A DNA stretch of 64,000 nucleotides from positions 24,700 to 88,699 of IMG/VR virus record IMGVR_UViG_3300045988_176129; one strand, given 5' to 3'. The translations under genes were made by a program, and so were the position numbers. The stretch comes from a virus. The notes below the pieces were generated by a model that worked only from the letters and a program-made list of their open reading frames with translations, was not told the DNA's origin and did no database searches. Positions 60,723 to 62,383 of the stretch are shown here, piece after piece; position 1 is the first letter of the stretch, and each line of letters starts with the position of its first letter.

Positions 60723-61697
60723 ATGCAATATATAATAGGAATAATTATAATATTAATTTTGTTCTTTTTTATTGGAAAACACTTTATAAAGATTCATACA
60801 ATAAATAAAGAAATAGAAAATGCTAACATTGAATTACAAAACAAAAATGATTTTTTAAAAAAAGAAACAGAAAAAAAGCATTTTGAACTTGAAAAGTTAG
60901 ATGAAAAAGAGCAGCACTACAGAGAGAAGATAAGAAATGTAGAAGAACAATATCAATCATGTGTAAAACATTATACTCAACGATGCAATGACCAAGAAGA
61001 CTTGAGTAGAGAAAGTTTTTCTCACTATTTTGATAATCTTCAAAATTCTTATAAAGAAGCAGATAAAAACTTTGATAAAAAAATTGAAGTTTTAAATAAT
61101 AAATACAAAGAGTTTGAGAAAGAAATAGATTTAAAAATCCAAGAGTCTCAAGCAGATTTAAGGAAGATTCAAGCAACACGTGCCGCAGCAATACAAGCAC
61201 AATTAAAAGAAAAAGAAATAAAAGACAATAAAAATTTTTATTGTTTAACTATTGATGAGACTGATAAAGCGGATATATATAGGTTAACAGAGATTAAAAA
61301 GACTCTTAATAAGCCAAGAGTATTATCAATGTTAATATGGAGTACATGGTTTCAAAAACCATTGAAAACTTTAAGCAATAATGTATTAGGAACTACTAAT
61401 GATGTAAGTGGTATTTATAAAATTACTAATATGGTTACAGAAGAGTGTTATATTGGTCAAAGTTGCGCTATAGCTCGAAGATGGTCAGAGCATGCCAAGT
61501 GTGGATTGGGAATAGATACCCCTGCAAATAATAAACTTTATAAAGCAATGCAAGAATATGGTTTATGGAATTTCTCTTGGGAACTTTTGGAGAAGTGTCC
61601 TGCGGAGCAATTAAATGAAAAGGAAAAATTTTATATTGAACTTTATCAGGCTTATGATTATGGTTATAATAGTAATACAGGAGTTAGTAAGAAATGA
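60723..61697 (+). CDS. membrane-anchored coiled-coil protein with C-terminal GIY-YIG nuclease domain
   Basis: N-terminal transmembrane segment IIGIIIILILFFFIG, about 170 aa of coiled coil, then GIYKITNMVTEECYIGQS...RRWSEH...YGYN. Confidence 0.7.
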   Translation: MQYIIGIIIILILFFFIGKHFIKIHTINKEIENANIELQNKNDFLKKETEKKHFELEKLDEKEQHYREKIRNVEEQYQSCVKHYTQRCNDQEDLSRESFSHYFDNLQNSYKEADKNFDKKIEVLNNKYKEFEKEIDLKIQESQADLRKIQATRAAAIQAQLKEKEIKDNKNFYCLTIDETDKADIYRLTEIKKTLNKPRVLSMLIWSTWFQKPLKTLSNNVLGTTNDVSGIYKITNMVTEECYIGQSCAIARRWSEHAKCGLGIDTPANNKLYKAMQEYGLWNFSWELLEKCPAEQLNEKEKFYIELYQAYDYGYNSNTGVSKK

Positions 61698-62383
61698 AGA
61701 AAGTTACAATAATGCCAGATACGCCTAAGAATCCTCTTGAACAAATGGGGTTTTATGCTGGGACATGTTGGGGAGCCGATACCTCAGATAAAGAAAAAAA
61801 TATTCGTAGGGGAAAGGGATGTATAGATAGTGGGCATGGAAGAATTTTAGAGTTGTCTCAAGTTTATATGGTTGTAGAAGGATATTCTGCAAGATGTATT
61901 AGAGAATTTTATACTCATATTGGTGGTAGTCCTACAAGACTTCAAGAGTCAACAAGATATATTCAATATGGAGATTTTAATTATATAACCCCTTCATCAA
62001 TAGCAAAGTCAGAAAAGGCTAATGATTTATATAGGGAGGTTATGAATACTATTTCTTCTACATATGTAAAATTAGAAGAATTAGGAATACCAAAAGAAGA
62101 TATAGCTAATATTCTTCCCCTTGGAATGGAATCAAAAATAACTGATAGAACAAATGCACGACAGATTATAGATATGTCACATCAGAGGGATTGTTCTCGC
62201 GCATATTGGGAAATGCGAGACTTGATGCATCAAATAGAGGTAGAGTTATCTAATTATTCAGAAGAGTGGGCTTATATTATAAAAAGTCAATGTATGCCAA
62301 AGTGTTGTTTACTTGGCTATTGTAATGAAGGAAAAAAATCTTGTGGTCGTTATCCTTTAAAGGAAAGTATTGACAATAAATAA
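61694..62383 (+). CDS. thyX: ThyX-family (flavin-dependent thymidylate synthase-like) protein with divergent RHR motif
   Basis: SGHGRILELSQVYMVVEGYSARCIREF...QESTRY and ARQIIDMSHQRD match the ThyX core, but the canonical RHR is THI. Confidence 0.65.
   Translation: MKKVTIMPDTPKNPLEQMGFYAGTCWGADTSDKEKNIRRGKGCIDSGHGRILELSQVYMVVEGYSARCIREFYTHIGGSPTRLQESTRYIQYGDFNYITPSSIAKSEKANDLYREVMNTISSTYVKLEELGIPKEDIANILPLGMESKITDRTNARQIIDMSHQRDCSRAYWEMRDLMHQIEVELSNYSEEWAYIIKSQCMPKCCLLGYCNEGKKSCGRYPLKESIDNK

What the first reader, a model, noticed from the sequence alone, without database searches (positions are those of the whole stretch)
60723..62383. Membrane-anchored, coiled-coil GIY-YIG nuclease translationally coupled to a divergent ThyX
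The GIY-YIG domain (GIYKITN...YIGQS...R...H...N) is at the C-terminus of a protein with an N-terminal transmembrane helix and about 170 aa of coiled coil. Homing endonucleases have the reverse layout, with the catalytic domain N-terminal and a DNA-binding domain C-terminal. Its stop overlaps the start (ATGA) of a ThyX-family gene in which the dUMP-binding RHR motif is replaced by THI while ESxRY is kept. Thymidylate synthase genes are classic homing-endonuclease targets. Two readings follow: a domesticated or relocalised nuclease acting on host DNA, or a ThyX paralog repurposed for a different pyrimidine modification.
Basis: partly seen in the sequence, partly recalled or inferred. Interest (0 to 1): 0.6.

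Follow-up and report, generated by a model that had tools for sequence, protein, structure and literature searches.

The report
Membrane-tethered phage GIY-YIG nuclease beside ThyX
A large gut-phage lineage carries a conserved, uncharacterised DNA-cutting enzyme anchored to the inside of the cell membrane on a long helical stalk, while the thymidylate synthase gene next to it is the ordinary version found in its likely Lachnospiraceae hosts.

Summary
ORF 60723-61697 encodes an N-terminal membrane helix, a continuous helix to residue 168, a small helical domain and a C-terminal I-TevI-type GIY-YIG domain with every catalytic residue kept. Its stop overlaps (ATGA) the start of a Thy1/ThyX gene with THI in place of RHR.

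The interpretation needs correction.

1. The nuclease does not look like a homing endonuclease. It belongs to a large unnamed family (at least 477 clusters at 50% identity). The family sits at a fixed place in an SPbeta-like replication module, is under purifying selection, and occurs in phages using three genetic codes.

2. THI is not a phage-specific change. THIGGxPTRLQxSTRY is the signature of the chromosomal ThyX of about 400 species, mostly Lachnospiraceae, often followed by dihydrofolate reductase. RHR binds FAD, not dUMP. The phage most likely took a normal host thymidylate synthase.

3. In related phages the gene after the nuclease is either this ThyX or phrog_6721 (unknown function), never both. 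phrog_6721 shows weak profile similarity to ThyX.

Best guess: a cytoplasmic, membrane-tethered, probably dimeric DNA nuclease that degrades host or incoming DNA near the membrane. The target is untested.

The parts
60095..60123 (+). Promoter-like site upstream of the winged-helix gene. It is a perfect TTGACA-17-TATAAT with TG before the -10 hexamer.
   Evidence: 12 of 12 matches. This is a consensus match only.
60376..60648 (+). Small winged-helix (MarR_2/HTH_24) protein of 90 aa. It is the conserved upstream neighbour of the nuclease gene.
   Evidence: PF12802, 29.9 bits. The same neighbour is seen in L006, L009 and L184.
60671..60709 (+). Perfect 18-bp hairpin followed by UUUUUCUAU, ending 13 nt before the nuclease start codon. 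It looks like an intrinsic terminator or attenuator.
   Evidence: -18.5 kcal/mol, z -4.7, and 0 of 200 shuffles fold as well. The consensus scan missed it.
60723..61697 (+). Gene for the membrane-tethered GIY-YIG nuclease (324 aa).
60729..60776 (+). N-terminal transmembrane helix (residues 3-18). There are no charged residues before it, and Lys/His follow it.
   Evidence: 253 of 259 relatives have it. Mean K+R is 0.04 before the helix and 2.9 in the 12 residues after it, which by the positive-inside rule places the C-terminus in the cytoplasm.
60777..61226 (+). Long Lys/Glu-rich helical stalk (residues 19-168), with a heptad pattern in parts.
   Evidence: helix over residues 2-168; heptad segments at about 49-97 and 91-132; the distance from the membrane helix to the GIY motif is conserved (median 202 aa, middle half 195-215) although the sequence is not.
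61230..61388 (+). Strongly conserved small helical domain (residues 170-222; FYC..D..DI..L..K..LNKPR.LSMLIW.T.FQKP). It matches no Pfam family.
   Evidence: invariant F172, Y173, D184, I185, P198, R199, L201-L204, W206; no Pfam hit in 23 members; helices 179-192 and 198-222.
61407..61670 (+). GIY-YIG catalytic domain (residues 229-316) with Y232, Y243, R253, H257, E301 and N316.
61679..61697 (+). AGGAG ribosome-binding site inside the 3' end of the nuclease gene, and the ATGA stop/start overlap.
   Evidence: read directly from the sequence. The start of the downstream gene also overlaps or abuts the nuclease stop in L009, L092, L098, L099, L112, L126, L145 and L163.
61694..62383 (+). ThyX of the Lachnospiraceae 'THI' clade (229 aa).
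61913..61960 (+). Motif THIGGSPTRLQESTRY (residues 74-89). THI replaces RHR, there is a 2-residue insertion carrying the invariant P80, T81 and R82, and S-x-R-Y is kept.
62370..62398 (+). Second perfect sigma-70-type promoter-like site, overlapping the end of thyX. It would start the next transcription unit.
   Evidence: 12 of 12 matches with TG.
62421..62774 (+). Second winged-helix protein (TrmB-like, 117 aa). It is the conserved downstream neighbour.
   Evidence: The same position is occupied in L003, L006, L009 and L184.
62794..63750 (+). YorF-like protein. It marks the start of the SPbeta-like replication genes (AAA_24, YorH, DnaB, then a DHH/RecJ-like gene in the close relative L184).
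   Evidence: PF27337 is on record for the positional homologues. The window copy itself has no Pfam hit at E <= 0.001.

Best explanation
The nuclease.
- Shown: the first gene encodes a member of a large, unnamed family of phage proteins. Each member has an N-terminal membrane anchor, a helical stalk of roughly 150 residues, a conserved small helical domain and an intact I-TevI-type GIY-YIG active site.
- Inferred from the positive-inside rule: the C-terminus lies in the cytoplasm.
- Inferred: the stalk pairs two chains, so two single-site nuclease heads could cut both DNA strands.

Expression (inferred). The gene lies in the early replication module, behind a strong terminator-like hairpin and a weak ribosome-binding site. 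It is probably made at a low level by read-through and co-translated with the next gene.

The second gene (shown by comparison, not by assay). It is a host-derived Lachnospiraceae-type flavin-dependent thymidylate synthase. Its flavin and phosphate-binding arginines are rearranged: R78, R80 and R147 of the T. maritima enzyme are lost, and R50, R82 and R169 are gained.

Proposed role (inference only). The nuclease cuts DNA that lies within about 20-25 nm of the inner face of the membrane. That DNA would be the host chromosome, whose breakdown products feed the nucleotide pool that ThyX helps convert to dTMP, or incoming foreign DNA. The tether would keep the nuclease away from replicating phage DNA, which would otherwise have no evident protection.

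How likely: about 0.8 that this is a conserved, non-homing, membrane-tethered nuclease paired with an ordinary host-type ThyX; about 0.35 for the whole statement including the proposed role in host-DNA breakdown.
For: Architecture and active site:
- Family hits and I-TevI alignment.
- Invariant catalytic residues in the family.
- AlphaFold2 model, mean pLDDT 89.

Family size and conserved layout:
- 477 representatives at E <= 1e-30, nearly all 290-340 aa and aligned end to end.
- 253 of 259 have the membrane helix, with the charge bias after it.
- Stalk length is conserved while its sequence is not.
- 141 of 150 representatives keep GIY..YIG..R..H.

Not mobile:
- The same position between a winged-helix gene and YorF/AAA_24/DnaB in contigs of 74-146 kb.
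- dN/dS 0.06 overall and 0.02 for the C-terminal half.
- Found in TAG-recoded and TGA-recoded phages, where the invariant W206 is encoded by TGA.

Link to dTMP synthesis:
- 62 of 77 loci have ThyX or phrog_6721 within about 1 kb downstream, often with overlapping stop and start.
- T4 offers a precedent for a GIY-YIG host-DNA nuclease (denA) encoded among nucleotide-precursor genes. This point rests on my own knowledge.

ThyX is ordinary.

Low expression: and the weak ribosome-binding site seen.
Against: - No assay exists. The substrate (DNA or RNA, host or foreign) is unknown.
- No DNA-binding domain is recognisable, so any targeting is unexplained.
- A coiled-coil dimer is not demonstrated. 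Heptads are patchy and the model is a monomer.
- Topology rests only on the charge rule.
- The neighbourhood evidence comes from one broad phage lineage, so adjacency to ThyX may be inherited gene order rather than a functional link. Most phage ThyX genes of this clade (53 of 79) have no such nuclease nearby.
- In 22 loci a ClpP-like gene lies between the nuclease and the next gene. The model does not explain this.
- No cultured phage in the GenBank set carries the full-length protein, apart from the mis-annotated copy in the metagenome-assembled phAss-1 genome.
Confidence: 0.35

Rival explanations
1. Superinfection exclusion. The tethered nuclease waits at the inner face of the membrane and cuts DNA injected by later-arriving phages. 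The resident phage is spared because its genome entered before the protein was made and replicates away from the membrane.
For: - Membrane anchor with the nuclease in the cytoplasm, and conserved stalk length.
- Location in the early replication module.
- Intact active site.
Against: - Nothing in the sequence points to incoming DNA in particular.
- The conserved pairing with ThyX or phrog_6721 has no obvious place in this model.
- No match to known exclusion or defence proteins beyond generic homing-endonuclease models.
Confidence: 0.2
2. Replication organiser. Like phage phi29 p16.7 (membrane helix, coiled coil, C-terminal DNA-binding domain), the protein would hold replicating phage DNA at the membrane. 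The GIY-YIG head would bind or nick DNA to start or resolve replication.
For: - The domain order resembles p16.7 (own knowledge of p16.7; architecture).
- The gene lies between ligase/gyrase and YorF/AAA_24/DnaB.
- The phrog_6721 partner is also always found in replication modules in unrelated phages.
Against: - There is no sequence or fold similarity to p16.7. The head is a catalytically complete nuclease of the I-TevI type, not a DNA-binding fold.
- No origin-like repeats were looked for or seen nearby.
Confidence: 0.15
3. Free-standing homing endonuclease. The nuclease would cut the thymidylate synthase region of phages that lack it and spread by repair. This is the classical association the first reader recalled.
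For: - The catalytic domain is closest to I-TevI and passes the TIGR01453 cut-off.
- It sits next to a thymidylate synthase gene.
- The slot after it is variable.
- Synonymous divergence from relative L184 is much higher in thyX (0.65) than in the nuclease gene (0.18), which hints at recombination at this junction.
Against: - The TIGR01453 match covers only model positions 2-88 of 215. The DNA-binding half is absent.
- A membrane anchor and a stalk of conserved length are hard to reconcile with scanning a genome for a target site.
- Strong purifying selection and conservation across 30-97% identity and three genetic codes are untypical of selfish nucleases.
- The nuclease is the constant element, and the supposed target varies.
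Confidence: 0.04
4. Membrane-bound RNA-degrading enzyme, analogous in layout to RNase Y (membrane helix, coiled coil, catalytic domains). It would turn over host or early phage transcripts.
For: Weak similarity of residues 8-167 to the N-terminal part of RNase Y (TIGR03319, E 0.14), and the same overall architecture.
Against: - The RNase Y hit is insignificant and probably reflects coiled-coil composition.
- Characterised GIY-YIG enzymes that match structurally are all DNA nucleases.
Confidence: 0.05

Closest known systems
I-TevI catalytic domain (GIY-YIG homing endonuclease of the phage T4 td intron; PDB 1LN0/1MK0)
   Different: - In I-TevI the catalytic domain is N-terminal and joined by a linker to zinc-finger and helix-turn-helix DNA-binding modules.
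- Here it is C-terminal, preceded by a membrane helix, a long stalk and an unrelated small helical domain. No DNA-binding module is present.
- The gene is not in an intron.
Phage T4 endonuclease II (DenA; PDB 2WSH)
   Different: - EndoII is soluble, has no membrane anchor or stalk, and shares 15% identity.
- T4 protects its own DNA by base modification. No modification genes were found in the window.
Flavin-dependent thymidylate synthase ThyX (T. maritima TM0449, M. tuberculosis ThyX; PF02511, TIGR02170)
   Same: - The fold matches, with TM 0.67-0.70, and Pfam scores 114 bits.
- Equivalents of H53, E58, R74, S88, R90, Y91, R165 and R174 are kept.
- Cellular members are often in an operon with dihydrofolate reductase.
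   Different: - RHR becomes THI with a 2-residue insertion, and R147 becomes Ala. New invariant or near-invariant arginines appear at positions 50, 82 and 169.
- Cys25, Cys167, Cys204, Cys210 and Cys217 are invariant.
- The score is below the TIGR02170 equivalog cut-off (64 vs 87.9).
Phage phi29 p16.7 and bacterial RNase Y (membrane helix + coiled coil + nucleic-acid-handling C-terminal part)
   Same: The order of parts and the likely cytoplasmic orientation are the same. All three have a nucleic-acid-acting head held at the membrane.
   Different: There is no detectable homology, and the heads have different folds and chemistry. The comparison rests on my own knowledge and on an insignificant RNase Y hit.

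Membership tests
GIY-YIG nuclease superfamily (PF01541) | GIY and YIG motifs about 10 residues apart at the start of the domain | tested here: met
   G230-I-Y232 and Y243-I-G245. Pfam scores 25.8 bits against a cut-off of 22.6. G230, Y232, Y243 and G245 are invariant in the family; I231 and I244 are nearly so.
GIY-YIG nuclease superfamily (PF01541) | Catalytic Arg, His, Glu and Asn (I-TevI R27, H31, E75, N90) | tested here: met
   R253, H257, E301 and N316 align with them and are invariant in 23 diverse members.
GIY-YIG nuclease superfamily (PF01541) | Three-stranded sheet flanked by helices | tested here: met
GIY-YIG nuclease superfamily (PF01541) | Metal-dependent phosphodiester cleavage | not testable with these tools
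   This needs a nuclease assay.
GIY-YIG homing endonucleases (I-TevI / TIGR01453 / Seg-type) | N-terminal catalytic domain joined to C-terminal DNA-binding modules | tested here: not met
   The catalytic domain is C-terminal. The TIGR01453 match covers only model positions 2-88 of 215. No NUMOD, IENR1 or HTH hit was found in the query or in 22 relatives.
GIY-YIG homing endonucleases (I-TevI / TIGR01453 / Seg-type) | Sporadic presence or absence among close relatives, location in an intron or between conserved genes, and relaxed selection | tested here: inconclusive
   Position is fixed in all contexts read. dN/dS is 0.06. The family is present under three genetic codes. However, the loci were retrieved through the gene itself, so absence in close relatives could not be scored without bias.
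Flavin-dependent thymidylate synthase ThyX (PF02511 / TIGR02170) | Match to the Thy1 domain model above the curated cut-off | tested here: met
   114.2 bits against a cut-off of 24.8.
Flavin-dependent thymidylate synthase ThyX (PF02511 / TIGR02170) | Score above the TIGR02170 equivalog cut-off | tested here: not met
   64.0 bits against a cut-off of 87.9.
Flavin-dependent thymidylate synthase ThyX (PF02511 / TIGR02170) | ThyX motif RHR...S-x-R-Y | tested here: not met
   RHR is THI, with no shifted RHR nearby. S86-T87-R88-Y89 are present. The whole clade shares this, including chromosomal genes of cultured Lachnospiraceae.
Flavin-dependent thymidylate synthase ThyX (PF02511 / TIGR02170) | ThyX fold | tested here: met
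   The model has pLDDT 88 and pTM 0.84. Foldseek gives TM 0.64-0.70 to T. maritima and M. tuberculosis ThyX with probability 1.00.
Flavin-dependent thymidylate synthase ThyX (PF02511 / TIGR02170) | FAD binding and dUMP-to-dTMP conversion | not testable with these tools
   Indirect support only: cellular members of the clade lie directly upstream of dihydrofolate reductase in 15 of 80 loci.
Known anti-phage defence or exclusion proteins (PADLOC-DB) | Significant match to a defence-system model over more than the nuclease domain | tested here: not met
   Only generic homing-endonuclease models matched (E 5.7e-10 and 1.3e-09, over residues 229-316 and 220-309), plus coiled-coil noise.

The most novel reading that the evidence does not exclude
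The constant partner of the tethered nuclease is a ThyX-fold enzyme. In most relatives this partner is phrog_6721, a family with at least 8000 homologues, no annotation, and neither RHR nor S-x-R-Y. The window's host-type ThyX replaces it, and the two never co-occur.

If phrog_6721 is a remote ThyX derivative that does the same job or a related one, two readings follow. It could be a third kind of thymidylate-forming enzyme. Or it could be a pyrimidine-modifying enzyme functionally coupled to a spatially restricted nuclease, which would be a new phage strategy for telling its own DNA from other DNA.
Probability: 0.12. Interest if true: 0.85.

Novelty: new variant of a known kind. Interest (0 to 1): 0.5.

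Why it matters
- GIY-YIG nucleases are known as soluble homing, repair or restriction enzymes. A large family that is always anchored to the membrane on a stalk of conserved length points to control of a nuclease by position in the cell rather than by sequence or base modification. This can be tested directly.
- The family is common in gut and rumen phages of Clostridia, including stop-codon-recoded ones, and has no name or Pfam model for its conserved middle domain.
- The finding also removes a false lead. The 'THI' ThyX is the normal Lachnospiraceae enzyme. It shows that the textbook RHR motif is dispensable in a whole clade, which matters for motif-based annotation and for ThyX inhibitor design.
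- The mutually exclusive ThyX / phrog_6721 slot gives a concrete functional hypothesis for a very large family of unknown function.

Tried and rejected
1. A known architecture for the N-terminal and middle parts. Pfam scans of the query and 22 diverse relatives found only GIY-YIG plus coiled-coil noise (DivIC, DUF4407, DUF4446). There was no DUF4041, T5orf172 or DNA-binding module.
2. Defence-system models found only homing-endonuclease profiles.
3. Literature searches found no description of either family. The searches covered GIY-YIG with transmembrane and coiled-coil, ThyX-like, ThyX with Lachnospiraceae, and phAss-1.
4. The AlphaFold database library was not available. BFVD gave two unnamed full-length viral matches.
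5. 'ThyX linkage is not conserved' was my first reading after seeing a ClpP-like gene downstream in L003 and L006. I revised it when phrog_6721 turned out to follow ClpP, and ThyX and phrog_6721 proved mutually exclusive.
6. phrog_6721 against ThyX. hhalign gives score 35-36, P about 2e-4 and probability 42-46%, against scores of 12-19 for reversed or unrelated profiles. This is suggestive, not proof.
7. A Cys-rich tail as a THI-specific novelty. I rejected this because a canonical RHR-type ThyX of a C. perfringens phage has an equivalent Cys and a C-terminal Cys cluster, and the STSV1 enzyme shares the equivalent of Cys167.
8. Spanin or lysis role. This rests only on an insignificant hit, and the endolysin gene lies 9 kb away.
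Full report
WHAT IS THERE

The two ORFs are exactly as reported: 60723..61697 (324 aa) and 61694..62383 (229 aa), both on the + strand. The nuclease stop TGA (61695-61697) overlaps the ThyX ATG (61694-61696). An AGGAG lies at 61679-61683.

The window is phage DNA. It carries 21 tRNA genes at 13.6-20.2 kb, an amidase endolysin, gyrase B and A, and an NAD-dependent ligase. 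Its positional relatives continue into an SPbeta-like replication module of YorF, AAA_24, YorH, DnaB and a DHH/RecJ-like gene. Megablast against GenBank phages finds nothing. The relatives are metagenomic contigs of about 75-200 kb.

THE NUCLEASE

Residues 229-316 are a GIY-YIG domain.
- Scores: PF01541 25.8 bits against a cut-off of 22.6; TIGR01453 69.2 against 56.05; phrog_7168 E 1.9e-21.
- Alignment with the I-TevI catalytic domain matches Y6, Y17, R27, H31, E75 and N90 to Y232, Y243, R253, H257, E301 and N316.
- These residues are invariant in 23 relatives that share less than 70% identity.
- 141 of 150 representatives clustered at 50% identity keep GIY..YIG..R..H.

Residues 3-18 are a membrane helix.
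- 253 of 259 full-length relatives have one.
- Almost no Lys or Arg precedes it (mean 0.04), and a mean of 2.9 lie in the next 12 residues.
- By the positive-inside rule the nuclease faces the cytoplasm.

The stalk has no Pro or Gly and is 30% Lys plus Glu. Heptad spacing is significant in two segments with a register shift, but not overall. 'Coiled coil' is therefore plausible but not established.

The distance from the membrane helix to the GIY motif is held at a median of 202 residues (middle half 195-215). The stalk sequence itself diverges. This suggests that stalk length matters.

The region from about residue 140 to the end is strongly conserved. It includes a middle domain (FYC..D..DI..L..K..LNKPR.LSMLIW.T.FQKP) that matches no Pfam family.

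THE NUCLEASE FAMILY

A full scan of 1.8 billion representative proteins finds 477 at E <= 1e-30. The best 150 are mostly 290-340 aa and align end to end. None has a name.

The family also occurs in stop-codon-recoded phages.
- In L001 (phAss-1), L129 and L148 the gene is interrupted by TAG.
- In L113, L116 and L118 it is interrupted by TGA. Where the interrupting TGA falls in the LSMLIW motif (L113, L116), it stands exactly where the invariant W206 lies.
- All of these keep the membrane helix and stalk.
- The 145-aa CDS annotated in phAss-1 is therefore truncated.

Against the close relative L184, dN/dS is 0.06 overall. It is 0.17 for the stalk and 0.02 for the C-terminal half.

This is the behaviour of a conserved functional gene, not of a selfish endonuclease. 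The protein also lacks the DNA-binding half that defines I-TevI-type enzymes.

GENOMIC CONTEXT OF THE NUCLEASE

The gene always lies after a small MarR-like winged-helix gene and before a second winged-helix gene and YorF.

I scored the slot directly after the nuclease in 77 non-redundant loci.
- 50 loci have phrog_6721, a family of unknown function with no Pfam match.
- 12 loci have the THI-type ThyX.
- 0 loci have both.
- 15 loci have neither within range; two of them have too little downstream sequence to score.
- In 22 loci a ClpP-like gene is interposed.

Going the other way, 79 viral contigs were retrieved through the THI-type ThyX. Of these, 23 have the nuclease just upstream, 53 have none, and none has phrog_6721 within 4 kb.

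The nuclease is thus nearly always followed by one of two alternative genes, often with overlapping stop and start. ThyX, by contrast, often occurs without the nuclease.

In the window, a perfect 18-bp hairpin with a U-tract ends 13 nt before the nuclease ATG (-18.5 kcal/mol, z -4.7). Perfect sigma-70-type promoters flank the unit at 60095 and 62370. The nuclease-ThyX pair is probably expressed at a low level by read-through. This is inference.

THE THYX

The Pfam Thy1 match (114 bits) and the fold (TM 0.67-0.70 to T. maritima ThyX) are clear.

Profile alignment to solved structures puts T74-H75-I76 on R78-H79-R80. A 2-residue insertion follows, and S86-T87-R88-Y89 fall on S88-G89-R90-Y91. RHR is truly absent.

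This does not make the gene a phage oddity.
- Nearly all of the 120 best homologues carry TH[IL][GA]GxPTRLQxSTRY.
- A scan of one genome per species found 400 matching stretches. The best 80 are nearly all Lachnospiraceae and other Clostridia. They include the isolates Lachnospira multipara ATCC 19207, L. pectinoschiza M83 and Acetatifactor aquisgranensis DSM 110981.
- One copy lies beside rpmG-secE-nusG-rplK-rplA.
- In 15 of 80 loci dihydrofolate reductase (PF00186, 150 bits) follows directly. This is the classical thymidylate synthase-reductase arrangement.

In solved structures it binds the FAD phosphates, ribityl and isoalloxazine (PMC6514825).

Compared with the T. maritima enzyme, the clade has lost R78, R80 and R147. 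It has gained invariant or near-invariant R50, R82 and R169. It keeps the equivalents of H53, E58, R74, S88, R90, Y91, R165 and R174.

I read this as a re-wired phosphate-binding network in an active enzyme, acquired by the phage from a Lachnospiraceae-like host at 55-60% identity. Enzyme activity is inferred, not shown.

PHROG_6721

This family has at least 8000 homologues, all unnamed. It also occurs in phiCTP1, Enterocloster phages, phiCD211-like C. difficile phages and Fusobacterium Fnu1. In each it lies among replication and recombination genes.

Its signature is KE.DTYKVGT.ANSTSTMHK ... LP.SWLQTRT.T.NYE.L..QRR.HKL.EW. To my eye this resembles the ThyX core.

Profile-profile alignment to canonical ThyX scores 36 (P 2e-4, probability 46%). 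Reversed or unrelated profiles give scores of 12-19 and P of 0.08-0.7. This is suggestive only.

HOW IT MOST LIKELY WORKS

Shown:
- An intact I-TevI-type active site sits at the end of a membrane-anchored helical stalk of conserved length.
- The gene is conserved and under purifying selection in an early replication module.
- It is co-translated with a host-type thymidylate synthase.

Inferred:
- Cytoplasmic orientation.
- Pairing of two chains, which would give two nicking sites.
- Low expression.

Proposed: the tether confines a non-specific or weakly specific DNA nuclease to a shell under the membrane. There it would meet host chromosome or incoming DNA but not the replicating phage genome. 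No base-modification genes were found in the window.

I favour host-DNA breakdown feeding nucleotide synthesis, for two reasons. The operon partner is ThyX, and T4 denA offers a precedent. Superinfection exclusion and a phi29 p16.7-like replication-anchoring role remain serious rivals. A homing-endonuclease role is unlikely.

VERDICT

The nuclease is a new architectural variant of a known enzyme kind. It defines a large uncharacterised family worth an experiment.

The 'divergent ThyX' is ordinary for its host clade.

The most interesting loose end is the mutually exclusive ThyX / phrog_6721 slot.

Noticed in passing
window 57393-59882: The NAD-dependent DNA ligase is split into two ORFs. The adenylation and OB part is 57393-58502, and the HhH and BRCT part is 59064-59882. 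A metallophosphoesterase-like ORF (58505-59086) lies between them. Relative L184 has the same three-gene layout. L009 has the split without the insert. L003 and L006 have an intact ligase of 646-663 aa.
   Followed up: partly
L001 (phAss-1, OQ749652) about 3460-4441; L129; L148; L113; L116; L118: The nuclease family occurs in TAG-recoded and TGA-recoded phages. In-frame TAG or TGA codons interrupt the gene, and where the TGA falls in the LSMLIW motif (L113, L116) it stands for the invariant Trp206. The 145-aa CDS annotated in phAss-1 is an N-terminally truncated call of a protein of about 325 aa with a membrane helix and stalk.
   Followed up: yes
L003 7604-8305, L098 5861-6757, L169 6128-6838 and about 50 other loci: phrog_6721 (unknown function, no Pfam, at least 8000 homologues) fills the slot that ThyX fills in the window. 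The two never co-occur. It shows weak profile similarity to ThyX (P about 2e-4; controls 0.08-0.7).
   Followed up: partly
L014-L093 (Lachnospiraceae genomes), e.g. L023 4001-5276: The THI-type ThyX is chromosomal in about 400 species. In 15 of 80 loci dihydrofolate reductase follows directly. The clade has lost three canonical arginines and gained three others, and it has invariant Cys25, Cys167, Cys204, Cys210 and Cys217. A similar Cys pattern is seen in a canonical C. perfringens phage ThyX.
   Followed up: partly
window 60723-62383 compared with L184 7030-8690: Synonymous divergence from the closest long relative is 0.18 in the nuclease gene but 0.65 in the adjacent thyX. This suggests the two genes have different recent histories, with recombination at or near the junction.
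   Followed up: no
L003 6960-7604, L006 6932-7582 and 20 further loci: A small ClpP-like protease gene (PF00574, about 210 aa with an N-terminal extension of about 45 aa) lies between the nuclease and phrog_6721 or ThyX in 22 of 77 loci. It is far from any head-morphogenesis genes.
   Followed up: no
L009 1-932: In a 66%-identical relative, a conventional GIY-YIG gene (316 aa) lies just before a 58-aa ORF that matches only the C-terminal end of gyrase B (PF00986). This looks like a genuine homing endonuclease splitting gyrB.
   Followed up: no
window 13638-20160 and 20273-21238: There is an array of 21 tRNA genes on the + strand. It is followed directly by an ORF with a weak radical-SAM match (23.6 bits, below the cut-off).
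   Followed up: no
window 44117-44977 and 45984-47219: A Thg1-like tRNA-His guanylyltransferase (PF04446, 104 bits) and an RNA ligase (PF09414 with a PHA02142 OB domain) lie close together. Three metallophosphoesterase-like ORFs are also present (47527-48303, 49186-49749, 58505-59086). Together they may form an RNA repair set.
   Followed up: no
window 38802-41255: An 817-aa protein matches the major-vault-protein shoulder domain (PF11978, 59.5 bits) and, weakly, the SPFH/Band 7 domain.
   Followed up: no
window 60095-60123 and 62370-62398: Two perfect extended sigma-70 consensus promoters (TTGACA-17-TG-TATAAT) bracket the unit formed by the winged-helix gene, the nuclease and ThyX. Each lies before one of the two small winged-helix genes.
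   Followed up: no
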